NCBI RefSeq assembly: GCF_963921235.1 | Contig: NC_086097.1 | Coordinates: 109,804,001 to 109,868,000, forward strand | Origin: Mobula hypostoma | Taxonomy: Eukaryota | Length of the DNA: 64,000 bases | Direction: 5' to 3' | In this document: piece after piece, positions 36,301-62,244 of the stretch | Numbering within the stretch: the first letter of the stretch is position 1 | How the letters are laid out: each line of letters begins with the position of its first letter | The notes under the pieces: model-generated | The model's database searches: none | What the model was told of the DNA's origin: nothing | Seen by the model: the letters and a program-made list of their open reading frames with translations, nothing else | Position numbers and translations under genes: made by a program

Positions 36301-39300
36301 CCCTACACCCTGTTCTCAAAATCTACTTCTGACATCAGCCCTCCAAACACCTTAAATGTTCCCAATCTCTCTACCTCTATCACTAACCATGGCAGGGCAT
36401 TCCACACACCCACTACACCCTGTGTCCAAAATCTACTTCTGACATCAGCCCCCCAAACACCTTAAAAGTTTCCAATCTCTCTGCTTCTATCACTAACCGT
36501 GGCAGGGCATTCCACACCCCCACTGCACCCTGTGTCAAAAATCTACTTCTGACATCAGCCCTCCAAACACCTTAAATGTTCCCAATCTCTTTACTTCTCT
36601 CACTAACCCTGGTAGAGCATTCCACACGTCCACTGCACCCTGCGTAAACAATCTACTTCTGACATAAGCACTGCAAACTCCTTAATTGTTCCCAGTCTCT
36701 CTGCCTTTGTCACTAACCCCGGCAGGGCATTCCACACGTCCACTACACTGTGTCAAAAATCTGCTTCTGACATCAGTGCTCTGAACACCTTAAATCTTCC
36801 CAATCTCACTACCTCCTTCACTAACACTGCAGGGCATTCCACACACCCACTACACCCTGCGTCAAATATCTACTTCTGTCATCAGCCCTCCAAACACCTT
36901 AGATTTTCCCAATCTCTCTTCCTCCATCACTAACCCTGGCAGGGCATTCCACACGTCCACTACACACTGTATCAAAAATCTGCTTCTGACATCAGCCCTC
37001 CAAACACCTTAAATGCTTCCAATCTATCTGCCTCCCTCCCTAACCCTAGCAGGGCATTCCACACGTCCACTACACCCTGCGTAAAAATTCTACTTCTGAC
37101 GTCAGCCCTCCAAACACCTTAAATGTTCCCAATCTCCCTGCCTCTGGTACTAATCCTGGCAGGGCATTCCACACGTCCACTACACCCTGTGTCAAAAATC
37201 TACTTCGGACATCAGCCCTCCAAACACCTTAAATGTTCCCAATCTCTCTACCTCTATCACTGACCCTGGCAGGGCATTCCACACGTCCACTACACCCTGT
37301 GTCAAAAATCTACTTCTGACATCAGACATCCAAACACCTTAAATGTTCCCAGTCTCTCTGCTTCTCTCACTAACCCTGGCAGGGCATTCCACACACCCAC
37401 TGCACCCTGTGTTCAAAATCTACTTCTGACATCAGACTTCCAAACACCTGAAATGTTTCCAATCTCTCTGCCTCTATCACGAACCCTGGCAGGGCATTCC
37501 ACACGTCCACGACACCCTGTGTCAAAATTCTGCTTCTCACATCAGACTTCCAAACACCATAAATCTTCCAAATCTCTCTACCTCTATCACAAACCCTGGC
37601 AGGGCATTCCACACGTCCACTACACCCTGTGTCAAAAATCTGCTTCTGACATCAGAATTCCAAACACCTTAAAGTTCCCAATCTCTCTGCCTCTGTCAAT
37701 AACCCTGGGAGGGCATTCCACACGTCCACTACACGCTGTGTCAAAAATCTGCTTCTGACATCAGCCGTCCAAGCACCCTTAAATGTTCCCAATCACTCTG
37801 CCTCTAGCACTAACCCTGGCAGGGCGTTCCACACACCCACTACACCCGGTATCCAAAATCTACTTCTGACATCAGCCCCCCAAACACCTTAATTGTTCCC
37901 ACTCTCTCTGCTTCTATCATTAACCGTGGTGTGGCACTCCACACGTCCACTGCACCCTGCGTAAACAATCTACTTCTGACATCAGTACTCCAAACTCCTT
38001 AAATGTTCCCAATATCTCTGCCTCTATCGTTAACCATGGCAGGGCATTTCACACACCCATTAAACACTGTGTCAAAAATCTGCTTCTGACATCATCCCTC
38101 CAAACACCCTTAATCTTCCCAATCTCTCTGCCTCTGGCACTAACCCAGGCAGGGCGTTCCACACACCCACGACACCCTTTGTCAAAAATCTTCTTCTGAC
38201 ATCAGCCCTCCAAACACCTTAATTATTCCCAGTCTCTCTGCCTCTTTCACTAACCCTGGTAGGGCATTCCACACGTCCACTACACCCTGCGAACACAATC
38301 TACTTCTGACATCAGCCCTCCAAACACCTTAAATCTTCCCAATCTCTCTGCCTCTATCACTAACCCTGGCAGGGCATTCCACACGTCCACTACACCCTGT
38401 GTCAAAAATCTACTTCTGACATCAGCCCTCCAAACACCTTAAATCTTCCCAATCTCTCTGCCTCTATCACTAACCCTGGCAGGGCATTCCACACACCCAC
38501 TACACCCTGCGTCCAAAATCTACTTCTGACATCAGCCCTCCAAACACCTTAAATATTCCCAATCTCTCTGCCTGTGTCAATAACCCTGGCAGGGCATTCC
38601 ACACGTCCACTGCACCCTGTGTCAAAAATCTGCTTCAGACATCAGCCCTCCAAACACCTTAAATGTTCCCAATCCCTCTGCCTCTATCACTAACCCTGGC
38701 AGGGATTTCCACAAGTCCACTACACCCTGTGTCAAAAATCTGCTTCCGACATCAGCCCTCCAAACACCTTAAATGTTCCCAATCTCTCTGCCTCTATCAC
38801 TAACCCTGGCAGGGCATTCCACACACCCACCACACCCTGCGTCAAATATCTACTTCTGCCATCAGCCCTCCAAACACATTATATGTTCCCAATCTCTCTT
38901 CCTCCATCACTAACCCTGGCAGGGCATTCCACACGTCCACTACAGACTGTATCAAAAATCTGCTTCTGACATCAGCCCTCCAAACACCTTAAATCTTCCC
39001 AATCTCTCTGCCTCTATCACTAACCCTGGCAGGGCATTCCACACGTCCACTACACCCTGTGTCAAAAATCTGCTTCTGACATCAGCCCTCCAAACACCAT
39101 AAATCTTCCAAATCTCTCTACCTCTATCACTAACACTGGCAGGGCATTTCACACCCACTACACCCTGCGTCAAATATCTACTTCTGCCATCAGCCCTCCA
39201 AACACATTATATGTTCCCAATCTCTCTTCCTCCATCACTAACCCTGGCAGGGCATTCCACACATCCACTACACACTGTATCAAAAATCTGCTTCTGACAT

Positions 39301-42300
39301 CAGCCCCCCAAACACCTTAAATGTTCCCAATCTCTCTGCCTCCCACCCTAACCCTTGCAGGATATTCCACACATCCACTACACCCTGCGTAAAAATTCTA
39401 CTTCTGACGTCAGCCCTCCAAACACCTTAAATGTTCCCAATCTCCCTGCCTCTGGTACTAATCCTGGCAGGGCATTCCACACGTCCACTACACGCTGTGT
39501 CAAAAATCTGCTTCTGACATCAGCCCTCCAAACACCATAAATGTTCCCAATCTCTCTGTGCCGTTGACTAACCCTGGCAGGGCGTTCCACACACGCACTA
39601 CACCCTGTTCTCAAAATCTACTTCTGACATCAGCCCTCCAAACACCTTAAATCTTCCCAATCTCTCTGCCTCTATCACTAACCCTGGCAGGGCGTTCCAC
39701 ACACCCACTACACCCTGTGTCAAAAATCTACTTCTGACATCAGCCCTCCAAACACCTTAAATGTTCCCAATCTCTCTGCCTCTATCACTAACCCTGGCAG
39801 GGCATTCCACACGTCCACTACACCCTGTGTCAAAAATCTGCTTCTGACATCAGCCCTCAAAACACCTTAAATGTTCCCAATCTCTCTGCCTCTATCACTA
39901 ACTCTGGCAGGGCATTCCACACGTCCACTACACCCTGTGTCAAAAATCTACTTCTGACATCAGCCCTCCAAACACCTTAAATGTTCCCAATCTCTCTACC
40001 TCTATCACAAACCCTGGCAGGGCATTCCACACACCCACTACACCCTGTGTCAAAAATCTGCTTCTGACATCAGCCCTCCAAACACCCTTAAATCTTCCCA
40101 ATCTCTCTGCCTCTGTCACCCACCCCGGCAGGGCATTCCACACGTCCACTACACCTTGCGTTAAAAATCTACTTCTGACATCAGTACTCCAAACTCCTTA
40201 AATGTTCCCAATGTCTCTGCCTCTATCATTAACCATGGCAGGACATTTCCACACACCCATTAAACACTGTGTCAAAAATCTGCTTCTGACATCATCCCTC
40301 CAAACACCCTTAATCTTCCCAATCTCTCTGCCTCTGGCACTAACCCAGGCAGGGCGTTCCACACACCCACGACACCCTTTGTCAAAAATCTATATCTGAC
40401 ATCAGCCCTCCAAACACCTTAATTGCTTCCCAATCTCTCTGCCTCTATCACTAACCCTGGCAGGGCATTCCACACGTCCACTACACCCTGTGTAAAAAGT
40501 CTACTTCTGACATCAGCCCTCCAAACACCTTAAATGTTCCCAATCTCCCTGCCTCTATCACTAAATCTGGCAGGGCATTCCACACGTCCACTACACCCTG
40601 TGTCAAAAATGTACTTCTGACATCAGCCCTCCGAACACCTTAAATGTTCCCACTCTCTCTGCCTCTATCACTGAATCTGGCAGGGCATTCCACACGTCCA
40701 CTACACCCTGTGTCAAAAATCTACTTCTGACATCAGCCCTCCAAACACCTGAAATGTTCCCACTCTCTCTGCCTCTATCACTAATCCTTGCAGGGCATTC
40801 CACACACCCACTGCACCCTGAGCCAAAATTTTACTTCTGACATCAGACTTCCAAACACCTAAATGTTTCCAATCTCTCTGCCTCTATCACGAACCCTGGC
40901 AGGGCATTCCACACGTCCACGACACCCTGTGTCAAAATTCTGCTTCTCACATCAGACTTCCAAACACCATAAATCTTCCAAATCTCTCTACCTCTATCAC
41001 AAACCCTGGCAGGGCATTCCACACGCCCACTACACACTTTCTCAAAAATCTGCTTCTGACATCTGCCCTCCAAACACCTTAAATATTCCCAATCTCTCTG
41101 CCTCTGTCAATAACCCTGGCAGGGCATTCCACACGTCCACTGCACCCTGTGTCAAAAATCAGCTTCAGTCATCAGCCCTCCAAACACCTTAAATCTTCCC
41201 AATCGCTCTGCCTCTATCACTAACCCTGGCAGGGCGTTCCACACACCCACTACACCCTGTGTCCAAAATCTACTTCTGACATCAGCCCTCCAAACACCTT
41301 AAATGTTCCCAATCTCTCTGCCTCTATCACTAACCCTGGCAGGGCATTCCACACGTCCACTACACCCTGTGTCAAAAATCTACTTCTGACATCAGCCCTC
41401 CAAACACCTTAAATGTTCCCAATCTCTCTGCCTCTATCACAAACCCTTGGCAGGGCATTCCACACATCTACTACACCAGGTGTCAAAAATCTACTTCTGA
41501 CATCAGCCCTCCAAACACCTTAAATCTTCCCAATCTCTCTGCCTCTATCACTAACCCTGGCAGGGCATTCCACACACCCACTACACCCTGCGTCCAAAAT
41601 CTACTTCTGACATCAGCCCTCCAAACACCTTAAATGTTCCCAATCTCTCTGCCTCTGTCACAAACCCTGGCAGGGCATTCCACATGTCCACTACACCCTG
41701 TGTCAAAAATCTACTTCTGACATCAGCCCTCCAAACACCTTAAATGTTCCCAATCTCTCTGCCTATATCACTAACCCTGGCAGGGCATTTCACACGTCCA
41801 CTACACCCTGTGTCAAAAATCTGCTTCTGACATCAGCCCTCCAAACACCTTAAATGTTCCCAATCTCTCTGCCTCTATCACTAACCCTGGCAGGGCATTC
41901 CACACACCCACCACACCCTGCGTCAAATATCTACTTCTGCCATCAGCCCTCCAAACACATTATATGTTCCCAATCTCTCTTCCTCCATCACTAACCCTGG
42001 CAGGGCATTCCACACATCCACTACACACTGTATCAAAAATCTGCTTCTGACATCAGCCCTCCAAACACCATAAATCTTCCAAATCTCTCTACCTCTATCA
42101 CTAACACTGGCAGGGCATTTCCACACGTCCACTACACCCTGTGTCAAAAATCTGCTTCTGACATCAGCCCTCCAAACACCATAAATCTTCCAAATCTCTC
42201 TACCTCTATCACTAACACTGGCAGGGCATTTCACACGTCCACTACACCCTGCGTCAAATATCTACTTCTGCCATCAGACCTCCAAACACATTATATGTTC

Positions 42301-45300
42301 CCAATCTCTCTTCCTCCATCACTAACCCTGGCAGGGCATTCCACACATCCACTACACACTGTATCAAAAATCTGCTTCTGACATCAGCCCCCCAAACACC
42401 TTAAATGTTCCCAATCTCTCTGCCTCCCACCCTAACCCTTGCAGGATATTCCACACATCCACTACACCCTGCGTAAAAATTCTACTTCTGACGTCAGCCC
42501 TCCAAACACCTTAAATGTTCCCAATCTCCCTGCCTCTGGTACTAATCCTGGAAGGGTATTCCACACGTCCACTACACGCTGTGTCAAAAATCTGCTTCTG
42601 ACATCAGCACTCCAAACACCATAAATGTTCCCAATCTCTCTGTGCCGTTGACTAACCCTGGCAGGGCGTTCCACACACGCACTACACCCTGTTCTCAAAA
42701 TCTACTTCTGACATCAGACTTCCAAACACTTGAAATGTTTCCAATCTCTCTGCCTCTATCACGAACCCTGGCAGGGCATTCCACACATCCACGACACCCT
42801 GTGTCAAAATTCTGCTTCTCACATCAGACTTCCAAACACCTTAAATCTTCCAAATCTCTCTACCTCTATCACAAACCCTGGCAGGGCATTCCACACGTCC
42901 ACTACACCCTGTGTCAAAAATCTGCTTCTGACATCAGCCCTCCAAACACCTTAAATGTTCCCAATCTCTCTGCCTCTATCACTAACCCTGGCAGGGCATT
43001 CCACACGTCCACTACACCCTGTGTCAAATATCTACTTCTGACATCAGCCCTCCAAACACCTTAGATGTTCCCAATCTCTCTGCCTCTATCACTAACCCTG
43101 GCAGGGCAGTCCACACACCCACTACACACTGTGTCAAAAATCTGCTTCTGACATCAGCCCTCCAAGCACCCTTAATCTTCCCAATCTCTCTGCCTCTGTC
43201 ACCCACCCCGGCAGGGCATTCCACACGTCCACTACACCTTGCGTTAAAAATCTACTTCTGACATCAGTACTCCAAACTCCTTAAATGTTCCCAATGTCTC
43301 TGCCTCTATCATTAACCATGGCAGGACATTTCACACACCCATTAAACACTGTGTCAAAAATCTGCTTCTGACATCATCCCTCCAAACACCCTTAATCTTC
43401 CCAATCTCTCTGCCTCTGGCACTAACCCAGGCAGGGCGTTCCACACACCCACGACACCCTTTGTCAAAAATCTATATCTGACATCAGCCCTCCAAACACC
43501 TTAATTATTCCCAATCTCTCTGCCTCTATCACTAACCCTGGCAGGGCATTCCACACGTCCAGTACATCCTGCGTAGAAAATCTACTTCTGATATCTGCCC
43601 TCCAAACACCTTAAATGTTCCCAATCTCTCTGCCTCTATCACTAATCCTGGCAGGGCATTCCACACGTCCACTACACCCTGTGTCAAAAATCTACTTCTG
43701 ACATCAGCCCTCCAAACACCTTAAATGTTCCCAATCTCTCTACCTCTATCACTGACCCTGGCAGGGCATTCCACACGTCCACTACACCCTGTGTCAAAAA
43801 TCTACTTCGGACATCAGCCCTCCAAACACCTTAAATGTTCCCAGTCTCTCTGCTTCTCTCACTAACCCTGGCAGGGCATTCCACACACCCACTGCACCCT
43901 GTGTTCAAAATCTACTTCTGACATCAGACTTCCAAACACCTAAATGTTTCCAATCTCTCTGCCTCTATCACGAACCCTGGCAGGGCATTCCACACGTCCA
44001 CGACACCCTGTGTCAAAATTCTGCTTCTCACATCAGACTTCCAAACACCATAAATCTTCCAAATCTCTCTACCTCTATCACAAACCCTGGCAGGGCATTC
44101 CACACGTCCACTACACCCTGTGTCAAAAATCTGCTTCTGACATCAGAATTCCAAACACCTTAAAGTTCCCAATCTCTCTGCCTCTGTCAATAACCCTGGG
44201 AGGGCATTCCACACGTCCACTACACGCTGTGTCAAAAATCTGCTTCTGACATCAGCCGTCCAAGCACCCTTAAATGTTCCCAATCACTCTGCCTCTAGCA
44301 CTAACCCTGGCAGGGCGTTCCACACACCCACTACAACCTGTGTCCAAAATCTACTTCTGACATCAGCCCCCCAAACACCTTAAATGTTCCCAATCTCTCT
44401 GCTTCTATCATTAACCGTGGTGTGGCACTCCACACGTCCACTGCACCCTGCGTAAACAATCTACTTCTGACATCAGTACTCCAAACTCCTTAAATGTTCC
44501 CAATATCTCTGCCTCTATCGTTAACCATGGCAGGGCATTTCACACACCCATTAAACACTGTGTCAAAAATCTGCTTCTGACATCATCCCTCCAAACACCC
44601 TTAATCTTCCCAATCTCTCTGCCTCTGGCACTAACCCAGGCAGGGCGTTCCACACACCCACGACACCCTTTGTCAAAAATCTTCTTCTGACATCAGCCCT
44701 CCAAACACCTTAATTATTCCCAATCTCTCTGCCTCTTTCACTAACCCTGGTAGGTCATTCCACACGTCCACTACACCCTGCGAAAACAATCTACTTCTGA
44801 CATCAGCCCTCCAAACACCTTAAATGTTCCCACTCTCTCTGCCTCTATCACTAACCCTGGCAGGGCATTCCACACGTCCACTACACCCTGTGTCAAAAAT
44901 CTACTTCTGACATCAGCCCTCCAAACACCTTAAATCTTCCCAATCTCTCTGCCTCTGGCACTAACTGTGGCAGGGCATTCCACACACCCACTACACCCGG
45001 TATCCAAAATCTAGTTCTGACATCAGCCCTCCAAATACCTTAAATGTTCCCAATCGCTCTGCCTCTGTCACGAACCCTGGCAGGGCATTCCACATGTCCA
45101 CTACACACTGTGTCAAAAATCTGCTTCTGACATCAGCCCTCCAAACACCTTAAATCTTCCCAATCTCTCTGCCTCTATCACTAACCCTGGCAGGGCATTC
45201 CACACGTCCACTACACCCTGTGTCAAAAATCTGCTTCTGACATCAGCCCTCCAAAGACCTTAAATGTTGACAATCTCTCTACCTCTATCACTAACCCTGG

Positions 45301-48300
45301 CAGGGCATTCCACACACCCACCACACCCTGCGTCAAATATCTACTTCTGCCATCAGCCCTCCAAACACATTATATGTTCCCAATCTCTCTTCCTCCATCA
45401 CTAACCCTGGCAGGGCATTCCACACATCCACTACACACTGTATCAAAAATCTGCTTCTGACATCAGCCCTCCAAACACCATAAATCTTCCAAATCTCTCT
45501 ACCTCTATCACTAACACTGGCAGGGCATTTCACACGTCCACTACACCCTGTGTCAAAAATCTGCTTCTGACATCAGCCCTCCAAACACCATAAATCTTCC
45601 AAATCTCTCTACCTCTATCACTAACACTGGCAGGGCATTTCACACGTCCACTACACCCTGCGTCAAATATCTACTTCTGCCATCAGACCTCCAAACACAT
45701 TATATGTTCCCAATCTCTCTTCCTCCATCACTAACCCTGGCAGGGCATTCCACACATCCACTACACACTGTATCAAAAATCTGCTTCTGACATCAGCCCC
45801 CCAAACACCTTAAATGTTCCCAATCTCTCTGCCTCCCACCCTAACCCTTGCAGGATATTCCACACATCCACTACACCCTGCGTAAAAATTCTACTTCTGA
45901 CGTCAGCCCTCCAAACACCTTAAATGTTCCCAATCTCCCTGCCTCTGGTACTAATCCTGGAAGGGCATTCCACACGTCCACTACACGCTGTGTCAAAAAT
46001 CTGCTTCTGACATCAGCACTCCAAACACCATAAATGTTCCCAATCTCTCTGCGCCGTTGACTAACCCTGGCAGGGCGTTCCACACACGCACTACACCCTG
46101 TTCTCAAAATCTACTTCTGACATCAGACTTCCAAACACTTGAAATGTTTCCAATCTCTCTGCCTCTATCACGAACCCTGGCAGGGCATTCCACACATCCA
46201 CGACACCCTGTGTCAAAAATCTGCTTCTGACATCAGCCCTCCAAACACCATAAATCTTCCAAATCTCTCTCCCTCTATCACAAACCCTGGCAGGGCATTC
46301 CACACGTCCACTACACCCTGTGTCAAAAATCTGCTTCTAACATCAGACTTCCAAACACCTTAAAGTTCCCAATCTCTCTGCCTCTGTCAATAACCCTGGG
46401 AGGGCATTCCACACGTCCACTACACTCTTTGTCAAAAATCTGCTTCTGACATCAGCCCTCCAAACACCTTAAATGTTCCCAATCTCTCTGCCTCTATCAC
46501 TAACCCTGGCAGGGCATTCCACACACCCACTACACCCTGTGTCCAAAATCTACTTCTGACATCAGCCCCCCAAACACCTTAAATGTTCCCAATCTCTCTG
46601 CTTCTATCATTAACCGTGGTGTGGCACTCCACACGTCCACTGCACCCTGCGTAAACAATCTACTTCTGACATCAGCCCTCCAAACTCCTTAATTGTTCCC
46701 AGTCTCTCTGTTTCTGTCACTAACCCTGGCTGGGTATTCCACACGTCCACTACACCCTGTGTCAAAAATCTGCTTCAGACATCAGCCCTCCAAACACCTG
46801 AAATGTTTACAATCTCTCTACCTCTATCACTAACCCTGGCAGGGCATTCCACACACCCACTACACACTGTGTCAAAAATCTGCTTCTGACATCAGCCCTC
46901 CAAGCACCCTTAATCTTCCCAATCTCTCTGCCTCTGTCACCCACCCCGGCAGGGCATTCCACACGTCCACTACACCTTGCGTTAAAAATCTACTTCTGAC
47001 ATCAGTACTCCAAACTCCTTAAATGTTCCCAATATCTCTGCCTCTATCATTAACCATGGCAGGGCATTTCACACACCCATTAAACACTGTGTCAAAAATC
47101 TGCTTCTGACATCATCCCTCCAAACACCCTTAATCTTCCCAATCTCTCTGCCTCTGGCACTAACCCAGGCAGGGCGTTCCACACACCCACGACACCCTTT
47201 GTCAAATATCTACTTCTGACATCAGCCCTCCAAACACCTTAATTATTCCCAATCTCTCTGCCTCTTTCACTAACCCTGGTAGGGCATTCCACACGTCCAC
47301 TACACCCTGCGAAAACAATCTACTTCTGACATCAGCCCTCCAAACTCCTTAATTCTTCCCAGTCTCTCTGTCTCTGTCACTAACCCCGGCAGGGCATTCC
47401 ACACGTCCACTACACCGTGTCAAAAATCTGCTTCTAACATCAGCCCTGCAAACACCTTAAATCTTCCCAATCTCACTACCTCTATCACTAACACTGGCAG
47501 GGCATTCCACACACCCACCACACCCTGCGTCAAATATCTACTTCTGCCATCAGCCCTCCAAACACATTACATGTTCCCAATCTCTCTTCCTCCGTCACTA
47601 ACCCTGGCAGGGCATTCCACACGTCCACTACACACTGTATCAAAACTCTGCTTCTGACATCAGCCCCCCAAACACCTTAAATGCTCCCAATCTCTCTGCC
47701 TCCCACCCTAACCCTTGCAGGATATTCCACACATCCACTACATCCTGCGTAAAAATTCTACTTCTGACGTCAGCCCTCCAAACACCTTAAATGTTCCCAA
47801 TCTCCCTGCCTCTGGTACTAATCCTGGCAGGGCATTCCACACGTCCACTACACCCTGTGTCAAAAATCTGCTTCTGACATCAGAATTCCAAACACCTTAA
47901 ATGTTCCCAATCTCTCTACGCCGTTGACTAACCCTGGCAGGGCGTTCCACAAACGCCCTACACCCTGTTCTCAAAATCTACTTCTGACATCAGCCCTCCA
48001 AACACCTTAAATGTTCCCAATCTCTCTACCTCTATCACTAACCATGGCAGGGCATTCCACACACCCACTACAGCCTGTGTCCAAAATCTACTTCTGACAT
48101 CAGCCCCCCAAACACCTTAAAAGTTTCCAATCTCTCTGCTTCTATCACTAACCGTGGCAGGGCATTCCACACCCCCACTACACCCTGTGTCAAAAATCTA
48201 CTTCTGACATCAGCCCTCCAAACACCTTAAATGTTCCCAATCTCTCTGCCTCTATCACTAACCCTGGCAGGGCATTCCACACGTCCACTACACCCTGTGT

Positions 48301-51300
48301 AAAAAGTCTACTTCTGACATCAGCCCTCCAAACTCCTTAATTGTTCCCAGTCTCTCTGCCTTTGTCACTAACCCCGGCAGGGCATTCCACACGTCCACTA
48401 CACTGTGTCAAAAATCTGCTTCTGACATCAGCCCTCCAAACACCTTAAATCTTCCCAATCTCTCTGCCTCCTTCACTAACCCTGGCAGGGCGTTCCACAC
48501 ACCCACTACACCCTGCGTCAAATATCTACTTCTGTCATCAGCCCTCCAAACACCTTAGATTTTCCCAATCTCTCTTCCTCCATCACTAACCCTGGCAGGG
48601 CATTCCACACGTCCACTACACACTGTATCAAAAATCTGCTTCTGACATCAGCCCTCCAAACACCTTAAATGCTTCCAATCTATCTGCCTCCCTCCCTAAC
48701 CCTAGCAGGGCATTCCACACGTCCACTACACCCTGCGTAAAAATTCTACTTCTGACGTCAGCCCTCCAAACACCTTAAATGTTCCCAATCTCCCTGCCTC
48801 TGGTACTAATCCTGGCAGGGCATTCCACACGTCCACTACACCCTGTGTCAAAAATCTACTTCGGACATCAGCCCTCCAAACACCTTAAATGTTCCCAATC
48901 TCTCTACCTCTATCACTGACCCTGGCAGGGCATTCCACACGTCCACTACACCCTGTGTCAAAAATCTACTTCGGACATCAGCCCTCCAAACACCTTAAAT
49001 GTTCCCAGTCTCTCTGCTTCTCTCACTAACCCTGGCAGGGCATTCCACACACCCACTGCACCCTGTGTTCAAAATCTACTTCTGACATCAGACTTCCAAA
49101 CACCTGAAATGTTTCCAATCTCTCTGCCTCTATCACGAACCCTGGCAGGGCATTCCACACGTCCACGACACCCTGTGTCAAAATTCTGCTTCTCACATCA
49201 GACTTCCAAACACCATAAATCTTCCAAATCTCTCTACCTCTATCACAAACCCTGGCAGGGCATTCCACACGTCCACTACACCCTGTGTCAAAAATCTGCT
49301 TCTGACATCAGAATTCCAAACACCTTAAAGTTCCCAATCTCTCTGCCTCTGTCAATAACCCTGGGAGGGCATTCCACACGTCCACTACACGCTGTGTCAA
49401 AAATCTGCTTCTGACATCAGCCGTCCAAGCACCCTTAAATGTTCCCAATCACTCTGCCTCTAGCACTAAGCCTGGCAGGGCGTTCCACACACCCACTACA
49501 CCCGGTATCCAAAATCTACTTCTGACATCAGCCCCCCAAACACCTTAAATGTTCCCAATCTCTCTGCTTCTATCATTAACCGTGGTGTGGCACTCCACAC
49601 GTCCACTGCACCCTGCGTAAACAATCTACTTCTGACATCAGTACTCCAAACTCCTTAAATGTTCCCAATATCTCTGCCTCTATCGTTAACCATGGCAGGG
49701 CATTTCACACACCCATTAAACACTGTGTCAAAAATCTGCTTCTGACATCATCCCTCCAAACACCCTTAATCTTCCCAATCTCTCTGCCTCTGGCACTAAC
49801 CCAGGCAGGGCGTTCCACACACCCACGACACCCTTTGTCAAAAATCTTCTTCTGACATCAGCCCTCCAAACACCTTAATTATTCCCAGTCTCTCTGCCTC
49901 TTTCACTAACCCTGGTAGGGCATTCCACACGTCCACTACACCCTGCGAACACAATCTACTTCTGACATCAGCCCTTCAAACACCTTAAATGCTCCCAATC
50001 ACTCTGCCTCTATCACTAACCCTTGCAGGGCATTCCACACATCTACTACACCAGGTGTCAAAAATCTACTTCTGACATCAGACCTCTAAACACCTTAAAT
50101 CTTCCCAATCTCTCTGCCTCTGGCACTAACTGTGGCAGGGCATTCCACACACCCACTACACCCGGTATCCAAAATCTAGTTCTGACATCAGCCCTCCAAA
50201 TACCTTAAATATTCCCAATCTCTCTGCCTGTGTCAATAACCCTGGCAGGGCATTCCACATGTCCACTACACCCTGTGTCAAAAATCTGCTTCTGACATCT
50301 GCCCTCCAAACACCTTAAATGTTCCCAATCTCTCTACCTCTATCACTAACCCTGGCAGGGCATTCCACACGTCCACTACACCCTGTGTCAAAAATCTGCT
50401 TCTGACATCAGCCCTCCAAACACCTTAAATGTTCCCAATCTCTCTGCCTCTATCACAAACCCTGGCAGGGCATTCCACACACCCACTACACCCTGTGTCA
50501 AAAATCTACTTCTGACATCAGCCCTCCAAACACCTTAAATGTTCCCAATCTCTCTGCCTCTATCACTAACCCTGGCAGGGCATTCCACACGTCCACTACA
50601 CACTGTATCAAAAATCTGCTTCTGACATCAGCCCTCCAAACACCTTAAATCTTCCCAATCTCTCTGCCTCTATCACTAACCCTGGCAGGGCATTCCACAC
50701 GTCCACTACACCCTGTGTCAAAAATCTGCTTCTGACATCAGCCCTACTAACACCTTAAATCTTCCCAATCTCTCTGCCTCTATCACAAACCCTGGCAGGG
50801 CATTCCACACGTCCACTACACCCTGCGTCAAAAATCTACTTCTGACATCAGCCCTCCAAACACATTATATGTTCCCAATCTCTCTTCCTCCATCACTAAC
50901 CCTGGCAGGGCATTCCACACATCCACTACACACTGTATCAAAAATCTGCTTCTGACATCAGCCCCCCAAACACCTTAAATGTTCCCAATCTCTCTGCCTC
51001 CCACCCTAACCCTTGCAGGATATTCCACACATCCACTACACCCTGCGTAAAAATTCTACTTCTGACGTCAGCCCTCCAAACACCTTAAATGTTCCCAATC
51101 TCCCTGCCTCTGGTACTAATCCTGGAAGGGCATTCCACACGTCCACTACACGCTGTGTCAAAAATCTGCTTCTGACATCAGCACTCCAAACACCATAAAT
51201 GTTCCCAATCTCTCTGCGCCGTTGACTAACCCTGGCAGGGCGTTCCACACACGCACTACACCCTGTTCTCAAAATCTACTTCTGACATCAGACTTCCAAA

Positions 51301-54300
51301 CACCTGAAATGTTTCCAATCTCTCTGCCTCTATCACGAACCCTGGCAGGGCATTCCACACATCCACGACACCCTGTGTCAAAATTCTGCTTCTCACATCA
51401 GACTTCCAAACACCATAAATCTTCCAAATCTCTCTACCTCTATCACAAACCCTGGCAGGGCATTCCACACGTCCACTACACCCTGTGTCAAAAATCTGCT
51501 TCTAACATCAGACTTCCAAACACCTTAAAGTTCCCAATCTCTCTGCCTCTGTCAATAACCCTGGGAGGGCATTCCACACGTCCACTACACTCTTTGTCAA
51601 AAATCTGCTTCTGACATCAGCCGTCCAAGCACCCTTAAATGTTCCCAATCACTCTGCCTCTAGCACTAACCCTGGCAGGGCGTTCCACACACCCACTACA
51701 ACCTGTGTCCAAAATCTACTTCTGACATCAGCCCCCCAAACACCTTAAATGTTCCCAATCTCTCTGCTTCTATCATTAACCGTGGTGTGGCACTCCACAC
51801 GTCCACTGCACCCTGCGTAAACAATCTACTTCTGACATCAGCCCTCCAAACACCTTAAATGTTCCCAATCTCTCTGCCTCTGTCACTAACCCTGGCAGGG
51901 CATTCCACACGTCCACTACACCCTGTGTCAAAAATCTGCTTCTGACATCAGCCCTCCAAACACCTTAAATGTTCCCAATCTCTCTGCCTCTATCACTAAC
52001 CCTGGCAGGGCATTCCACACACCCACTACACACTGTGTCAAAAATCTGCTTCTGACATCAGCCCTCCAAGCACCCTTAATCTTCCCAATCTCTCTGCCTC
52101 TGTCACCCACCCCGGCAGGGCATTCCACACGTCCACTACACCTTGCGTTAAAAATCTACTTCTGACATCAGTACTCCAAACTCCTTAAATGTTCCCAATA
52201 TCTCTGCCTCTATCATTAACCATGGCAGGACATTTCACACACCCATTAAACACTGTGTCAAAAATCTGCTTCTGACATCATCCCTCCAAACACCCTTAAT
52301 CTTCCCAATCTCTCTGCCTCTGGCACTAACCCAGGCAGGGCGTTCCACACACCCACGACACCCTTTGTCAAAAATCTACTTCTGACATCAGCCCTCCAAA
52401 CACCTTAATTATTCCCAATCTCTCTGCCTCTTTCACTAACCCTGGTAGGTCATTTCACACGTCCACTACACCCTGCGTAAACAATCTACTTCTGACATCA
52501 GCCCTCCAAACTCCTTAATTCTTCCCAGTCTCTCTGCCTCTGTCACTAACCCCGGCAGGGCATTCCACACGTCCACTACACCGTGTCAAAGATCTGCTTC
52601 TAACATCAGCCCTGCAAACACCTTAAATCTTCCCAATCTCACTACCTCTATCACTAACACTGGCAGGGCATTCCACACACCCACCACACCCTGCGTCAAA
52701 TATCTACTTCTGCCATCAGCCCTCCAAACACATTACATGTTCCCAATCTCTCTTCCTCCGTCACTAACCCTGGCAGGGCATTCCACACGTCCACTACACA
52801 CTGTATCAAAACTCTGCTTCTGACATCAGCCCCCCAAACACCTTAAATGCTCCCAATCTCTCTGCCTCCCACCCTAACCCTTGCAGGATATTCCACACAT
52901 CCACTACATCCTGCGTAAAAATTCTACTTCTGACGTCAGCCCTCCAAACACCTTAAATGTTCCCAATCTCCCTGCCTCTGGTACTAATCCTGGCAGGGCA
53001 TTCCACACGTCCACTACACGCTGTGTCAAAAATCTGCTTCTGACATCAGCCCTCCAAACACCATAAATGTTCCCAATCTCTCTACGCCGTTGACTAACCC
53101 TGGCAGGGCGTTCCACAAACGCCCTACACCCTGTTCTCAAAATCTACTTCTGACATCAGCCCTCCAAACACCTTAAATGTTCCCAATCTCTCTACCTCTA
53201 TCACTAACCATGGCAGGGCATTCCACACACCCACTACAGCCTGTGTCCAAAATCTACTTCTGACATCAGCCCCCCAAACACCTTAAAAGTTTCCAATCTC
53301 TCTGCTTCTATCACTAACCGTGGCAGGGCATTCCACACCCCCACTGCACCCTGTGTCAAAAATCTACTTCTGACATCAGCCCTCCAAACACCTTAAATGT
53401 TCCCAATCTCTTTACTTCACTCACTAACCCTGGTAGAGCATTCCACACGTCCACTGCACCCTGCATAAACAATCTACTTCTGACATAAGCACTGCAAACT
53501 CCTTAATTGTTCCCAGTCTCTCTGCCTTTGTCACTAACCCCGGCAGGGCATTCCACACGTCCACTACACTGTGTCAAAAATCTGCTTCTGACATCAGTCC
53601 TCTGAACACCTTAAATCTTCCCAATCTCACTACCTCCTTCACTAACACTGCAGGGCATTCCACACACCCACTACACCCTGCGTCAAATATCTACATCTGT
53701 CATCAGCCCTCCAAACACCTTAGATTTTCCCAATCTCTCTGCCTCTGTCACTAACCCCGGCAGGGTATTCCACACGTCCACTACACCGTGTCAAAAATCT
53801 GCTTCTGACATCAGCCCTCCAAACACCTTAAATATTCCCAATCTCTCTGCCTCTATCACTAACCCTGGCAGGGCATTCCACACGTCCACTACACCCTGCG
53901 TAAAAATTCTACTTCTGACGTCAGCCCTCCAAACACCTTAAATGTTCCCAATCTCCCTGCCTCTGGTACTAATCCTGGCAGGGCATTCCACACGTCCACT
54001 ACACCCTGTGTCAAAAATCTACTTCGGACATCAGCCCTCCAAACACCTTAAATGTTCCCAATCTCTCTACCTCTATCACTGACCCTGGCAGGGCATTCCA
54101 CACGTCCACTACACCCTGTGTCAAAAATCTACTTCGGACATCAGCCCTCCAAACACCTTAAATGTTCCCAGTCTCTCTGCTTCTCTCACTAACCCTGGCA
54201 GGGCATTCCACACACCCACTGCACCCTGTGTTCAAAATCTACTTCTGACATCAGACCCCCAAACACCTGAAATGTTTCCAATCTCTCTGCCTCTATCACG

Positions 54301-54470
54301 AACCCTGGCAGGGCATTCCACACGTCCACTACACCCTGTGTCAAAAATCTGCTTCTCACATCAGACTTCCAAACACCATAAATCTTCCAAATCTCTCTAC
54401 CTCTATCACAAACCCTGGCAGGGCATTCCACACGTCCACTACACCCTGTGTCAAAAATCTGCTTCTGACA
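12400..54470. repeat. Higher-order repeat domain B: mainly ~45-47-mer units (4,945-5,166 bp) with truncated 23-31-mer variants
   Basis: Marker ORF spacings from the track: 17,817-22,874 (5,057), 22,874-27,819 (4,945), 21,004-25,951 (4,947), 32,425-37,370 (4,945), 34,192-39,355 (5,163), 45,848-51,013 (5,165), 47,715-52,881 (5,166). Shorter spacings: 13,756-16,280 (2,524), 27,819-30,454 (2,635), 39,355-42,439 (3,084), 42,439-45,848 (3,409). Boundaries are approximate. Confidence 0.88.
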
Positions 54471-54479
54471 TCAGCCCTG

Positions 54480-57400
54480 CAAACACCTTAAATCTTCCCA
54501 ATCTCTCTTCCTCCATCACTAACCCTGGCAGGGCATTCCACACGTCCACTACAGACTGTATCAAAAATCTGCTTCTGACATCAGCCCTCCAAACACCTTA
54601 AATGCTCCCAATCACTCTGCCTCTATCACTAACCCTTGCGGGACATTCCACACATCTACTAAACCCTGTGTCAAAAATCTACTTCTGACATCAGCCCTCT
54701 AAACACCTTAAATGTTCCCAATCTCTCTGCCTCTTTCACTAACCCTGGCAGGGCATTCCACACGTCCACTACACCCTGTGTCAAAAATCTACTTCTGACA
54801 TCAGCCCTCTAAACACTTTAAATGTTCCCAGTCTCTCTGCCTCTATCACTAACCCTGGCAGGGCGTTCCACACACCCACTACACCCGGTGTCCAAAATCT
54901 ACTTCTGACATCAGCCCTCCAAACTCCTTAAATGTTCCCAATCTCTCTGCCTCAATCACTAAACCTGGCAGGGCATTTCACACACCCACTACACCGTGTG
55001 TCAAAAATCTGCTTCACACATCAGCCCTCCAAACACCCTTAATCTTCCCAATCTCTCTGCCTTTAGCACTAACCCTGGCAGGGCATTCCACACACCCACC
55101 ACACCCTGCGTCAAATATCTACTTCTGCCATCAGCCCTCCAAACACATTACATGTTCAAATCTCTCTTCCTCCATCACTAACCCTGGCAGGGCATTCCAC
55201 ACGTCCACTACACACTGTATCAAAAATCTGCTTCTGACATCAGCCCTCCAAACACCTTAAATGCTTCCAATCTATCTGCCTCCCTCCCTAACCCTAGCAG
55301 GGCATTCCACACGTCCACTACACCCTGCGTAAACAATCTACTTCTGACATCAGCCCTCCAAACACCTTAAATGTTCCCAATCTCCCTGCCTCTGGTACTA
55401 ATCCTGGCAGGGCATTCCACACGTCCACTACACGCTGTGTCAAAAATCTCCTTCTGACATCAGCCCTCCAAACACCTTAAATGTTCCCAATCTCTCTACC
55501 TCTATCACTAACTCTGGCAGGGCATTCCACACGTCCACTACACCCTGTGTCAAAAATCTACTTCTGACATCAGCCCTCCAAACACCTTAAATGTTCCCAG
55601 TCTCTCTGCCTCTATCACTAACCCCGGCAGGGCATTCCACACACCCACTGCACCCTGTGTTCAAAATCTATTTCTGACATCAGACTTCCAAACACCTGAA
55701 ATGTTTCCAATCTCTCTGCCTCTATCACGAACCCTGGCAGGGCATTCCACACGTCCACGACACCCTGTATCAAAATTCTGCGTCTCATATCAGACTTCCA
55801 AACACCATAAATCTTCCAAATCTCTCTACCTCTATCACAAACCCTGGCAGGGCATTCCACACGTCCACTACACCCTGTGTCAAAAATCTGCTTCTGACAT
55901 CAGACTTCCAAACACCTTAAAGTTCCCAATCTCTCTGCCTCTGTCAATAACCCTGGGAGGGCATTCCACACGTCCACTGCACCCTGTGTCAAAAATCAGC
56001 TTCAGTCATCAGCCCTGCAAACACCTTAAATCTTCCCAATCTCTCTGCCTCTATCACTAACCCTGGCAGGGCGTTCCACACACCCACTACACCCTGTGTC
56101 CAAAATCTACTTCTGACATCAGCCCTCCAAACACCTTAAATGTTCCCAATCTCTCTGCTTCTATCATTAACCCTGGCAGGGCATTCCACACGTCCACTAC
56201 ACCCTGCGTAAAAAATCTACTTCTGACATCAGTCCTCCAAACACTTTAAATGTTCCCAATTTCTCTGCCTCTATCAATAAACCTGGCAGGGCATTTCACA
56301 CACCCACTACACCGTGTGTCAAAAATCTGCTTCACACATCAGCCCTCCAAACACCCTTAATCTTCCCAATCTCTCTGCCTTTAGCACTAACCCTGGCAGG
56401 GCATTCCACACACCCACCACACCCTGCGTCAAATATCTACTTCTGCCATCAGCCCTCCAAACACATTACATGTTCAAATCTCTCTTCCTCCATCACTAAC
56501 CCTGGCAGGGCATTCCACACGTCCACTACACACTGTATCAAAAATCTGCTTCTGACATCAGCCCTCCAAACACCTTAAATGCTTCCAATCTATCTGCCTC
56601 CCTCCCTAACCCTAGCAGGGCATTCCACACGTCCACTACACCCTGCGTAAACAATCTACTTCTGACATCAGCCCTCCAAACACCTTAAATGTTCCCAATC
56701 TCCCTGCCTCTGGTACTAATCCTGGCAGGGCATTCCACACGTCCACTACACGCTGTGTCAAAAATCTCCTTCTGACATCAGCCCTCCAAATACCTTAAAT
56801 GTTCCCAATCTCTCTACCTCTATCACTGACCCTGGCAGGGCATTCCACACGTCCGCTACACCCTGTGTCAAAAATCTACTTCGGACATCAGCCCTCCAAA
56901 CACCTTAAATGTTCCCAGTCTCTCTGCTTCTCTCACTAACCCTGGCAGGGCATTCCACACACCCACTGCACCCTGTGTTCAAAATCTACTTCTGACATCA
57001 GACTTCCAAACACCTGAAATGTTTCCAATCTCTCTGCCTCTATCACGAACCCTGGCAGGGCATTCCACACGTCCACGACACCCTGTGTCAAAATTCTGCG
57101 TCTCACATCAGACTTCCAAACACCATAAATCTTCCAAATCTCTCTACCTCTATCACAAACCCTGGCAGGGCATTCCACACGTCCACTACACCCTGTGTCA
57201 AAAATCTGCTTCTGACATCAGACTTCCAAACACCTTAAAGTTCCCAATCTCTCTGCCTCTGTCAATAACCCTGGGAGGGCATTCCACACGTCCACTACAC
57301 GCTGTGTCAAAAATCTGCTTCTGACATCAGCCGTCCAAGCACCCTTAAATGTTCCCAATCACTCTGCCTCTAGCACTAACCCTGGCAGGGCGTTCCACAC

Positions 57401-58070
57401 ACCCACTACAACCTGTGTCCAAAATCTACTTCTGACATCAGCCCCCCAAACACCTTAAATGTTCCCAATCTCTCTGCTTCTATCATTAACCGTGGTGTGG
57501 CACTCCACACGTCCACTGCACCCTGCGTAAACAATCTACTTCTGACATCAGCCCTCCAAACTCCTTAAATGTTCCCAATCTCTCTGCCTCAATCACTAAA
57601 CCTGGCAGGGCATTTCACACACCCACTACACCGTGTGTCAAAAATCTGCTTCACACATCAGCCCTCCAAACACCCTTAATCTTCCCAATCTCTCTGCCTT
57701 TAGCACTAACCCTGGCAGGGCATTCCACACACCCACCACACCCTGCGTCAAATATCTACTTCTGCCATCAGCCCTCCAAACACATTACATGTTCAAATCT
57801 CTCTTCCTCCATCACTAACCCTGGCAGGGCATTCCACACGTCCACTACACACTGTATCAAAAATCTGCTTCTGACATCAGCCCTCCAAACACCTTAAATG
57901 CTTCCAATCTATCTGCCTCCCTCCCTAACCCTAGCAGGGCATTCCACACGTCCACTACACCCTGCGTAAAAATTCTACTTCTGACGTCAGCCCTCCAAAC
58001 ACCTTAAATGTTCCCAATCTCCCTGCCTCTGGTACTAATCCTGGCAGGGCATTCCACACGTCCACTACAC
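54480..58070. repeat. Higher-order repeat domain C: ~2.5-3 copies of a 12-mer (1,318-1,319 bp)
   Basis: Identical ORFs at 54,996/56,314/57,633 and a related pair at 55,618/56,936. The copies share the variants TTCACACATC, CTTTAGCACT and the 1-bp-deleted CATGTTCAAATC. Confidence 0.85.
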
Positions 58071-60751
58071 GCTGTGTCAAAAATCTCCTTCTGACATCAG
58101 CCCTCCAAACTCCTTAATTGTTCCCAGTCTCTTTGCCTCTGTCACTAACCCCGGCAGGGCATTCCACACGTCCACTACACCCTGTGTCAAATATCTGCTT
58201 CTGACATCAGCCCTCCAAACACCTGAAATGTTTACAATCTCTCTACCTCTATCACTAACCCTGGCAGGGCATTCCATACACCCACTACACACTGTGTCAA
58301 AAATCTGCTTCTGACATCAGCCCTCCAAACACCATAAATCTTCCAAATCTCTCTACCTCTATCACAAACCCTGGCAGGGCATTCCACACACCCACTACAC
58401 CCTGTGTCAAAAATCTGCTTCTGACATCAGCCCTCCAAGCACCCTTAATCTTCCCAATCTCTCTGCCTCTTTCACGAACCCCGGCAGGGCATTCCACACG
58501 TCCACTACACCTTGCGTTAAAAATCTACTTCTGACATCAGTACTCCAAACTCCTTAAATGTTCCCAATATCTCTGCCTCTATCATTAACCATGGCAGGGC
58601 ATTTCACACACCCATTAAACACTGTGTCAAAAATCTGCTTCTGACATCATCCTTCCAAACACCCTTAATCTTCCCAATCTCTCTGCCTCTGGCACTAACC
58701 CAGGCAGGGCGTTCCACACACCCACGACACCCTTTGTCAAAAATCTACTTCTGACATCAGCCCTCCAAACACCTTAATTATTCCCAATCTCTCTGCCTCT
58801 TTCACTAACCCTGGTAGGGCATTCCACACGTCCACTACACCCTGCGAACACAATCTACTTCTGACATCAGTCCTCCAAACTCCTTAATTCTTCCCAGTCT
58901 CTCTGTCTCTGACACTAACCCCGGCAGGGCATTCCACACGTCCACTACACCGTGTCAAAGATCTGCTTCTAACATCAGCCCTGCAAACACCTTAAATCTT
59001 CCCAATCTCACTACCTCTATCACTAACACTGGCAGGGCATTCCACACACCCACCACACCCTGCATCAAATATCTACTTCTGCCATCAGCCCTCCAAACAC
59101 ATTACATGTTCCCAATCTCTCTTCCTCCGTCACTAACCCTGGCAGGGCGTTCCACACACCCACTACAGCCTGTGTCCAAAATCTACTTCTGACATCAGCC
59201 CCCCAAACACCTTAAAAGTTTCCAATCTCTCTGCTTCTATCACTAACCGTGGCAGGGCATTCCACACCCCCACTGCACCCTGTGTCAAATATCTACTTCT
59301 GACATCAGCCCTCCAAACACCTTAAATGTTCCCAATCTCTTTACTTCTCTCACTAACCCTGGTAGAGCATTCCACACGTCCACTGCACCCTGCGTAAACA
59401 ATCTACTTCTGACATAAGCACTGCAAACTCCTTATTTGTTCCCAGTCTCTCTGCCTTTGTCACTAACCCCGGCAGGGCATTCCACACGTCCACTACACTG
59501 TGTCAAAAATCTGCTTCTGACATCAGTCCTCTGAACACCTTAAATCTTCCCAATCTCACTACCTCCTTCACTAACACTGCAGGGCATTCCACACACCCAC
59601 CACACCCTGCGTCAAATATCTACTTCTGTCATCAGCCCTCCAAACACCTTAGATTTTCCCAATCTCTCTCCCTCTGTCACTAACCCTGGCAGGGCATTCC
59701 ACACGTCCACTACACCCTGTGTCAAAAATCTGCTTCTAACATCAGCCCTGCAAACACCTTAATCTTCCCAATCTCACAACCTCTATCACTAACACTGGCA
59801 GGGCATTCCACACACCCACCACACCCTGAGTCAAATATCTACTTCTGACATCAGCCCTCCAAACACCTTAAATGCTCCCAATCACTCTGCCTCTATCACT
59901 AACCCTTGCGGGACATTCCACACATCTACTAAACCCTGTGTCAAAAATCTACTTCTGACATCAGCCCTCTAAACACCTTAAATGTTCCCAATCTCTCTGC
60001 CTCTGTCAATAACCCTGGGAGGGCATTCCACACGTCCACTACACGCTGTGTCAAAAATCTGCTTCTGACATCAGCCGTCCAAGCACCTTTAATCTTCCCA
60101 ATCTCTCTGCCTCTAGCACTAACCCTGGCAGGGGTTCCACACACCCACTACAGCCTGTGTCCAAAATCTACTTCTGACATCAGCCCCCCAAACACCTTAA
60201 ATGTTCCCAATCTCTCTGCCTCTGTCACTCACACTGGCAGGGCATTCCACACGTCCACTACACCCTGTGTCAAAAATCTGCTTCTAACATCAGCCCTGCA
60301 AACACCTTAAATCTTCCCAATCTCACTACCTCTATCACTAACACTGGCAGGGCATTCCACACACCCACCACACCCTGCGTCAAATATCTACTTCTGACAT
60401 CAGCCCTCCAAACACATTACATGTTCCCAATCTCTCTTCCTCCATCACTAACCCTTGCAGGGAATTCCACACATCTACTACACCTTGTGTCAAAAATCTG
60501 CTTCTGACATCAACCCTCTAAACACCTTAAATGTTCCCAATCTCTCTGCTTCTCTCACTAACCCTGGTAGAGCATTCCACACGTCCACTGCAACCTGCGT
60601 AAACAATCTACTTCTGACATAAGCACTGCAAACTCCTTAATTGTTCCCAGTCTCTCTTCCTCCATCACTGACCCTGGCAGGGCATTCCACACGTCCACTA
60701 CAACCTGTGTCAAAAATCTGTTTCTGACATCATCCCTCCAAACAGCTTATA

Positions 60752-61430
60752 TTTATGCTCCTCATATTAACTATTTCTGCCCTGCTGAAACATCTCTGGC
60801 TGTCCACTCCATCATTTTGCACACATCTATCAGTTCACCATTCATCCTTCTCTCCAAAGAGAAAAGCCCAAGCTCTCTTAATCTATCCTCATAAGATATG
60901 CTTTCAAATCTAGGTAGCATCCTGGTAAAGCTCCTCTGCACCTTTGCTAAAGCTCTCCACATCCCTCCTATAATGAGGCAACCAGATACGTGCACAATAT
61001 TTCAAGTATGGCATAACCAGAGTGTTATAGAGCTACAACATTACCCCCTGGCTCTTGAATTTGATCCTCCGATTACTGAAAGCTTTCACACCATACAATT
61101 TATTCACCGTCTTATCAATTTGTGTTCCGATTTTGAGGGATTTATGGACATCGACTCCACAATATCTCTGTTCCTCCTCACAGTTAAAATTCTGCCTTTA
61201 ACTCCGCATTTTTCCTTCAATCCAAAGTAAATCATTTCGCACTGTTTTATAATGAAATTCATTCGCCACTTCTCAGTTCTGCTCTGCATCCAATCAATGT
61301 CTCGCTGAAATCGATGACAATTTTCCACACTACTCGCAGTACCACCAACCTTCATGTTATCTGCAAACTTACTAATGCACCCTACCACTTCCTCATTCAC
61401 ATCACTATTAAAACTCACAAAGAGCAGGGC
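60752..61430 (-). mobile_element. Decayed, 5'-truncated CR1-type non-LTR retrotransposon, ORF2 (end of RT domain and C-terminal region), contiguous with the satellite
   Basis: Minus-strand translation across frameshifts and a stop gives ALLFVSFNSDVNEEVVGCISKFADNMKVGG (RT motif FADD decayed to FADN, 61,356-61,367). It continues FQRDIDWMQSRTEKW, EEQRYCGVDVHKSLK, VML*LYNTLVMPYLKYCARIWLPHYRRDVE, KVQRSFTRMLPRFESISYEDRLRELGLFSLERR and VDSQRCFSRAEIVNMR. These are CR1-clade ORF2 blocks in the expected order. Confidence 0.93.
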
Positions 61431-61439
61431 AACCTGGTA

Positions 61440-61550
61440 CCGGAAATCTGAAAGAAAAGCTGAACTGATAAAAGGATATCCGACTGCAAAAACTCCCCGT
61501 AGACGCTGCTTGACCTGCTGAGTATATCTAGTGTTTCTGGTTTGTAATTT
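61440..61550. mobile_element. Short remnant of a Penelope-like terminal repeat
   Basis: 61,500-61,545 TAGACGCTGCTTGACCTGCTGAGTATATCTAGTG aligns by eye with 63,292-63,326 TAGATGGGGCCTGGCCTGCTGAGTTCCTCCAGCA. It lies where similarity to the first CR1 stops. Confidence 0.5.
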
Positions 61551-61636
61551 GGAAGGGAGGACCATCATTTTTGATGAAACTCCTGAGTTAGTTGAAAAGG
61601 AAGTAGCGATGTTATCTGCATGTGTTCGTATCTAAC

Positions 61637-62186: not shown

Positions 62187-62244
62187 AACACACTAAATGC
62201 TGGGGAGCTCAGTAAGCCAGGCAGCATCCATTGAAAAGAGTAAA

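What the first reader, a model, noticed from the sequence alone, without database searches (positions are those of the whole stretch)
60400..61430. A >60-kb satellite runs seamlessly out of a CR1 LINE copy: candidate in-situ birthplace of a LINE-derived satellite
Seen: read on the minus strand, the decayed CR1 ORF2 proceeds ...LGLFSLERR..VDSQRCFSRAEIVNMR-HKYKLFGG-DVRNRFLTQVVVDVWNALPGSVMEEERLGT. At that point it loops back to (F/I)K..FGG-DVR and repeats about 550 times. There is no spacer, inversion or change of register at the junction (~60,752). Established: RGH.FK..G....DVR..FFTQRVV..WN.LP..VVEA..L..FK is the conserved C-terminal tail of CR1-clade ORF2, and it directly follows the LFSLERRR block. 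Inference: the array is a massive tandem amplification of an internal 110-bp piece of this very LINE copy. TE-derived satellites are known in general, but a junction preserving the parent element in register is unusual, and I do not recognise this satellite family.
Basis: partly seen in the sequence, partly recalled or inferred. Interest (0 to 1): 0.85.

Follow-up and report, generated by a model that had tools for sequence, protein, structure and literature searches.

The report
Satellite grown inside one CR1 LINE
A 101-kb block of about 920 copies of a 110-base repeat sits between the two halves of an old CR1-type jumping gene, at exactly the spot its unit comes from, so it most likely grew in place there: an unusually clean example of a known way satellite DNA is born.

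Summary
The array is 110 bp x 553 in the window and about 919 copies over 101 kb in total. Its far end, 40 kb left of the window, resumes the LINE in the same orientation: last ORF2 codons, stop, 3' UTR and tail. The unit is the stretch between two TTTAAG words of the LINE, shortened by about 10 bp. Unit-specific patterns hit only this array (128 of 128; 609 of 609). It grew partly by multi-kilobase block duplications. A related species (about 2.7% diverged) also carries the amplified repeat; two more distant ones showed none. Caveats: a 200-N assembly gap near the far end, no read bridging a junction, and CR1 clade assigned without Dfam or Repbase. Arrays flanked by both ends of the parent element are in print for SINEs (PMC10702118). 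Unchecked scan notes report three similar arrays in this genome and a CR1-derived one in another. New member of a known kind.

The parts
60753..61445 (-). 5' part (693 bp) of a decayed, 5'-truncated CR1-type LINE copy: C-terminal half of the reverse transcriptase region of ORF2, up to the first TTTAAG-like word
   Evidence: tblastn to ORF2 of family copy L066, E 6e-43; 70-74% DNA identity to the 39 other scored copies; 5' end of homology at 61445
60643..60752 (-). Boundary unit (unit 1), continuous with the flank; begins at the 5' microhomology word (60752-60746) and already has the ~10-bp deletion that all units share
   Evidence: its variants are shared mostly with units in the right half of the array
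1..60749 (-). Window part (553 copies) of the 110-bp tandem array. The whole array is G000:C1:109763629-109864749 (916.3 + 2.6 copies either side of a 200-N gap). Beyond its far end, outside the window, lie the last ORF2 codons and stop (about C1:109763590), the 3' UTR and the tail (C1:109763491-109763503), 138 bp in all
   Evidence: TRF; sequence; tblastn residues 379-442, E 9e-17; coordinates
61445..61450 (-). Candidate target-site duplication (CAGATT); the same 6-mer lies 3 bp beyond the tail at the far end. Suggestive only
   Evidence: chance 256-849 of 20000 for 12-15 nt windows chosen after seeing the match

Best explanation
A 101-kb array of a 110-bp unit lies between the 5' and 3' parts of a truncated CR1-type LINE, in order and orientation, and most likely arose there by tandem duplication of that piece of the LINE itself. 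Steps: (1) shown: a ~940-bp 5'-truncated copy (693 + 110 + 138 bp) would result if the array were one unit. (2) Inferred: long after insertion, and after a ~10-bp deletion, slippage or microhomology-mediated repair between the two TTTAAG words that bound this segment in the family made a dimer. (3) Inferred from the shown block structure: unequal exchange or break repair between misaligned units grew it, first unit by unit and recently in blocks of 23-75 or more units. (4) Shown for the assembly: it never spread to another locus. It likely has no coding function and is a neutral, single-locus satellite.
For: Both ends in register with ORF2. TTTAAG-like words at both unit ends in 20 of 27 usable family copies (43 examined), spaced 118-121 bp in 16 of 19 young copies. 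Single locus: 128 of 128 exact 33-mer hits and 609 of 609 one-mismatch 21-mer hits lie in the array. Diagnostic columns, old/young/neither: flank 29/7/3, central unit 11/2/0, last unit 10/1/2, 3' remainder 15/0/3. Continuity across the gap: all 38 units with one two-base marker lie in the left 40% of the array, including a unit beyond the gap. 497 of 917 units sit in duplicated blocks of 5 or more units, against 0 in each of 5 order shuffles. Candidate TSD. Summed contig depth on the unit is hundreds of times single-copy depth in organisms A and B, and B shows a 'goes back 110' joint.
Against: A 200-N gap separates the main array from the last 2.6 units and the 3' remainder. No listed contig bridges the right junction by 31 or more letters on each side; the best reaches 13 letters in and is probably the assembly's own sample. 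Unit 1 is ambiguous in the subfamily test (7/5/1), and the 'old' group is only 7 of 26 kept copies (68 examined), 4 of them picked by likeness to unit or tail. Flank and unit do not overlap, so 'same copy' cannot be shown by shared mutations. Units differ from each other by 14.7% on average, more than the flank differs from organism D (59 of 817, 7.2%) or C (76 of 631, 12.0%), in which no amplification was seen; this is unexplained. Two patterns for the same loop-back in other copies found nothing, so the microhomology step is not shown to recur.
Confidence: 0.85

Rival explanations
1. The satellite arose elsewhere from another CR1 copy and entered this copy by ectopic recombination or gene conversion through homology.
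For: Homologous recombination would also give in-register ends. The assembly may omit arrays, and contig depth laid at 82% likeness to boundary units undercounts. An unchecked note (e1-7790172) describes a CR1-embedded array in another genome that proved genome-wide.
Against: No unit-specific hit outside this array in 3.48 Gb (128 of 128; 609 of 609). The best dispersed matches to the unit are 75-85% over part of it. Summed depth in X1 at 60721 (5189 against 5.7-10.1 for single-copy contigs) does not exceed what about 919 copies would give, though the tool warns that this is no copy number.
Confidence: 0.05
2. The two ends come from two neighbouring CR1 copies. Recombination between them made the seed dimer, or the scaffolder joined unrelated ends across the gap.
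For: CR1-type copies are dense here: further copies lie about 0.3 kb beyond the 5' end and about 11 kb beyond the 3' end. The gap is real.
Against: Marker continuity across the gap (38 of 38). Array units lie on both sides of the gap in the same orientation. Both parts fall in the same subfamily group. Candidate TSD shared by the two outer flanks.
Confidence: 0.07
3. The seed duplication was made at insertion, by the reverse transcriptase jumping back between the TTTAAG words, and the array is as old as the copy, later homogenised.
For: The microhomology fits template jumping as well as DNA slippage. High unit diversity (14.7%) points to an old array.
Against: All units share the deletion and other changes from the family, and a central unit is about as far from the old-group majority (89 of 110) as the flank is (428 of 545). 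The extant units therefore descend from an already decayed segment, unless homogenisation erased the record. Organisms C and D hold the flank but show no amplified unit.
Confidence: 0.08

Closest known systems
SINE-derived satellites (sSats) of squamates, variant with both SINE termini (Vassetzky, Kosushkin, Ryskov 2023, PMC10702118; parts 1, 3 and 4 of 5 of the text read, no supplements)
   Same: Unit is a sub-portion of the element; array still attached to parental sequence; the paper describes loci of up to 1000 units and an uncommon variant with both termini.
   Different: Here the parent is the ORF2 of a LINE. The array is at one locus, mid-contig (109.8 of 256.4 Mb) rather than subtelomeric and multi-locus.
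Ogre-derived satellites of Lathyrus sativus (Vondrak et al., PMC7004042; passages read)
   Same: Arrays embedded in retrotransposon copies that occasionally expand to long arrays.
   Different: There the short arrays are part of the mobile LTR element's 3' UTR and travel with it. Here none of the family copies examined carries the tandem, so the seed is inferred to have formed in one dead copy.
Chicken HinfI (SCR1) repeat with CR1 ORF2/3' UTR, cetacean L1-derived satellite, PROsat and Pvc20 (all seen only as cited in the review PMC9659126; passages read)
   Same: Satellite units that contain 3' ORF2 or 3' UTR sequence of a LINE, including CR1.
   Different: The passages read describe sequence similarity of the monomer, not a parent copy still bracketing the array. 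I did not see the original papers.

Membership tests
CR1-clade LINE (parent copy) | ORF2 with a reverse transcriptase domain | tested here: met
   Family copies L044 and L066 hit Pfam RVT_1; this copy aligns to L066 ORF2 at E 6e-43 and 9e-17
CR1-clade LINE (parent copy) | 3' microsatellite tail (ATTCTRTG in most birds; PMC8665684, passages) | tested here: inconclusive
   Family copies end in a related 7-mer repeat (TTCTATG) and this copy has one full and one degenerate unit: similar, not the amniote 8-mer
CR1-clade LINE (parent copy) | 5' truncation with intact 3' end | tested here: met
   Homology starts at window 61445 inside the RT region and runs to the tail
CR1-clade LINE (parent copy) | Endonuclease domain and 3' hairpin | not tested
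   The copy is truncated downstream of the endonuclease; the hairpin was not folded
CR1-clade LINE (parent copy) | Placement among named CR1 versus L2 references | not testable with these tools
   No Dfam or Repbase here. The label CR1 rests on the recalled C-terminal motif and on the tail
Satellite DNA | Long head-to-tail array of similar monomers | tested here: met
   About 919 units, 101 kb, one orientation
Satellite DNA | Homogenisation / concerted evolution | tested here: inconclusive
   458 of 917 units have an identical twin, but mean pairwise difference is 14.7% and there is no single regular higher-order repeat
Satellite DNA | Heterochromatic or centromeric location | not testable with these tools
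   No chromatin data. 35 samples (115 kb) within about 3 Mb on either side showed no other long array
TE-born in-situ satellite (sSat-like, both termini) | Both parts of the parent flank the array in order | tested here: met
   caveat of the 200-N gap
sSat in the strict sense | Parent is a SINE; many loci; subtelomeric bias | tested here: not met
   Parent is a LINE ORF2; single locus; mid-contig

The most novel reading that the evidence does not exclude
This genome repeatedly turns a short internal piece of a single dead retroelement into a 10-100-kb single-locus satellite that never disperses, leaving the parent's halves in place. This array, the 47-bp array 11 kb away and the three arrays in unchecked scan notes (in a SINE, a Penelope-like element and a retrotransposon's 5' end) would form a natural series of satellite births with known parents and seeds, datable across related species. 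The units being more diverged from each other than orthologous flanks of species lacking the array would then measure an elevated mutation rate inside a growing array.
Probability: 0.4. Interest if true: 0.7.

Novelty: new member of a known kind. Interest (0 to 1): 0.45.

Why it matters
How satellites start is usually inferred from monomer similarity alone, after the birthplace has been erased. Here the parent copy, the exact seed boundaries (a 6-bp microhomology), the whole array and relatives with and apparently without the amplification are all available. Seed mechanism, growth mode and mutation rate can therefore be tested directly. It does not reveal a new biological function, and the kind of event is already in print.

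Tried and rejected
Independent loop-back duplications at the same microhomology in other copies: two exact patterns, one per subfamily group, gave 0 hits each; exact patterns miss decayed cases. DNA search with two units did not return the array itself and scored only 37 of 327 candidates, so it says nothing on copy number; patterns were used instead. A direct Pfam scan of the decayed flank failed on stop codons. Idea that the two outer flanks rejoin the end of an older SINE-like element: inconclusive, because the 5' letters also align to the LINE itself. Coding function of the array: rejected (period not a multiple of 3). Centromere-like neighbourhood: no other long array in 35 samples; this neither shows nor excludes a centromere. 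Frequency of LINE-embedded tandem repeats: 0 of 5 tandem rows in 18 arbitrarily placed 10-kb samples lay inside detectable CR1; the sample is too small for a rate, and the same test also missed the 47-bp case. Expression: no RNA holder listed. Look-alikes among scan notes of other genomes: none. Literature: nine counted searches found no description of this repeat or of a CR1-bracketed array in cartilaginous fishes. PMC11406177 and PMC11835228 (passages) had nothing on it; PMC5381603 (passages) only states that CR1 and L2 prevail in the elephant shark. The library lacks most subscription papers and no supplements were read, so a catalogue entry for this satellite could have been missed.

Full report
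Observation. The window is almost entirely one tandem array: period 110, window 1-60749, 553.0 copies, 85% matches, with a strong and constant strand skew. On the minus strand the sequence from 61445 down to the array is a decayed LINE ORF2. Together with the first unit it aligns to residues 152-427 of the ORF2 of a younger family copy from the same genome (E 6e-43), and that copy carries Pfam RVT_1. The junction has no spacer or inversion.

The other end. The window is G000:C1:109804001-109868000. Walking left, the array runs to C1:109763629: 916.3 copies, a 200-N gap, then 2.6 more copies, about 101 kb in all. The last unit continues without a break into the last ORF2 codons and stop (residues 379-442, E 9e-17), then the 3' UTR and the short repeat tail that family copies end with. 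With the array reduced to one unit the element would be 693 + 110 + 138 bp. This is what in-situ origin predicts. The gap is the weak point. Against a false join, units beyond the gap are in the same orientation and share local variants: a two-base marker occurs in 38 of 917 units, all in the left 40% of the array, one of them beyond the gap. A 6-mer next to the 5' end recurs 3 bp after the tail and may be a target-site duplication. Its chance level is 256-849 of 20000 for 12-15-nt windows that I chose after seeing it, so it is only suggestive.

The unit. In family copies the segment is bounded by TTTAAG at both ends. Both words are present with at most one mismatch in 20 of 27 usable copies of 43 examined (spacings in that set are scattered, mode 120). 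The spacing is 118-121 bp in 16 of 19 young copies. The satellite unit is this segment with about 10 bp deleted near its start, and every loop-back passes through the word. A microhomology-mediated duplication is therefore the simplest seed (inference; the review PMC9659126, passages, lists microhomology-mediated end joining and unequal recombination as routes). Patterns for the same loop-back in other copies gave 0 hits.

Same parent? Among 26 family copies with both flank and tail homology (68 examined), 19 form a young group and 7 an older, looser group. At columns that separate the groups, the old/young/neither counts are 29/7/3 for the flank, 11/2/0 for a central unit, 10/1/2 for the last unit, 15/0/3 for the 3' remainder and 7/5/1 for unit 1. 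This agrees with one parent but is coarse: the old group is small and partly chosen by likeness to the pieces.

Single locus. An exact 33-mer across the loop-back has 128 hits in 3.48 Gb, all in this array. A 21-mer across the deletion, with one mismatch allowed, has 609 hits, all in this array. The assembly may be incomplete.

Growth. 917 aligned units (one was dropped for the gap) are 8.7% from their majority and 14.7% from each other; 581 are distinct and 458 have an identical twin. The longest repeated runs are 40, 32, 32 and 31 units at offsets of 45, 46, 120 and 75 units, with under 1% difference. 497 of 917 units lie in duplicated blocks of 5 or more, against 0 in each of 5 order shuffles. 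Neighbouring units are no more alike than distant ones (about 16 differences at offsets from 1 to 600). Average-linkage clustering leaves 342 clusters at 2.7% and 144 at 7.3%. This suggests an old, diverse array enlarged recently by multi-kilobase duplications, with no single regular higher-order repeat.

Other organisms. A run search listed 24 runs; I laid 4 of them, all contigs. X1 (organism A) matches the flank without differences and is probably the assembly's own sample, so it is not independent. X6 (organism B) differs at 35 of 1311 flank positions (2.7%). It shows a 'goes back 110' joint, and a summed depth of 44282 at 60721 against 39-54 for its single-copy flank contigs; X1 shows 5189 against 5.7-10.1. 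The tool warns that summed depth is no copy number, but the contrast is plain. X9 (organism C) and X13 (organism D) hold flank pieces at 12.0% (76 of 631) and 7.2% (59 of 817) difference, yet have depth 8.4 and 2.5 in the bin 60560-60628 where A and B have 1331 and 8584. I read this as an amplification shared by A and B and not detected in C and D. It is not proof of absence, since the laid units are themselves 9-14% from the array majority and the cut-off was 82%. That B's array is at the same locus is inferred; no listed contig bridges a junction by the tool's 31-letter rule. Unexplained: units differ from one another more than A differs from C or D. Either the array is older and was small or lost in C and D, or it mutates faster than its flanks.

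Context. An array of 47 bp x 20.6 at C1:109751416-109752382 lies inside another, more decayed copy whose flanks align across it to ORF2 residues 242-420 (E 2e-14). In-place expansion inside such copies is therefore not unique even locally. Scan notes, which I did not check, report 74-kb, 115-kb and 13.5-kb arrays born inside other retroelements in this genome and a CR1-derived 14-kb array in another genome. They also call this a cartilaginous-fish genome, which fits my recall of these repeats but comes from no test here. No other long array was seen in 35 samples within about 3 Mb.

Comparison with what is known. TE-derived satellites, including CR1- and L1-derived ones, are reviewed in PMC9659126 (passages). 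Expansion of arrays embedded in retrotransposons is shown in PMC7004042 (passages). PMC10702118 (three of five parts read) describes SINE-derived arrays of up to 1000 units and an uncommon variant with both termini of the parent. This finding works like that variant but is not a member in the strict sense, since the parent is a LINE ORF2 and the array is single-locus and interstitial. CR1 membership of the parent is likely but rests on a recalled motif, RT homology and a tail that resembles, without equalling, the amniote 8-mer (PMC8665684, passages). Nine searches found no description of this repeat (listed under Tried and rejected); supplements were not read.

Verdict. Real, well supported, and an unusually complete example of a known process: new member of a known kind, interest 0.45, confidence 0.85 in the in-situ origin.

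Noticed in passing
L031:7416-8382 (G000:C1:109751416-109752382): 47-bp x 20.6 array (92% matches) inside another decayed CR1-type copy on the plus strand; the flanks align across it to ORF2 residues 242-420. A second, small in-place expansion about 11 kb from the big array.
   Followed up: partly
window about 61790-63810, minus strand: Another decayed CR1-type copy just upstream in the same orientation (ORF2 residues 147-430, E 9e-23 and 1e-12), split by about 1.2 kb of inserted sequence that looks SINE-like (label recalled; very high contig depth at 62216-62284 and 62423-62491).
   Followed up: partly
window 61450-61560: Fragment of a short dispersed repeat next to the LINE's 5' end; 3 other partial matches scored.
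   Followed up: partly
L044, L047, L052, L065, L066, L070 and others: A young subfamily of the same LINE: 19 copies 96-99% like their majority, with stop-free ORF2 stretches of up to 634 codons within the fetched loci. Suggests recent activity.
   Followed up: no
window about 270 to C1:109787800 (array units about 550-700): A zone of about 150-200 units with almost no duplicated blocks (0, 0, 0, 1 of 50) between two zones rich in them: the array has domains with different recent histories.
   Followed up: no
L111:7140-7658 (G000:C9:140007140-140007658): 66-bp x 7.8 array at 98% matches, not in detectable CR1.
   Followed up: no
G000:C1:109763921-109764120: 200-N run inside the array; the true array length may exceed 101 kb.
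   Followed up: partly
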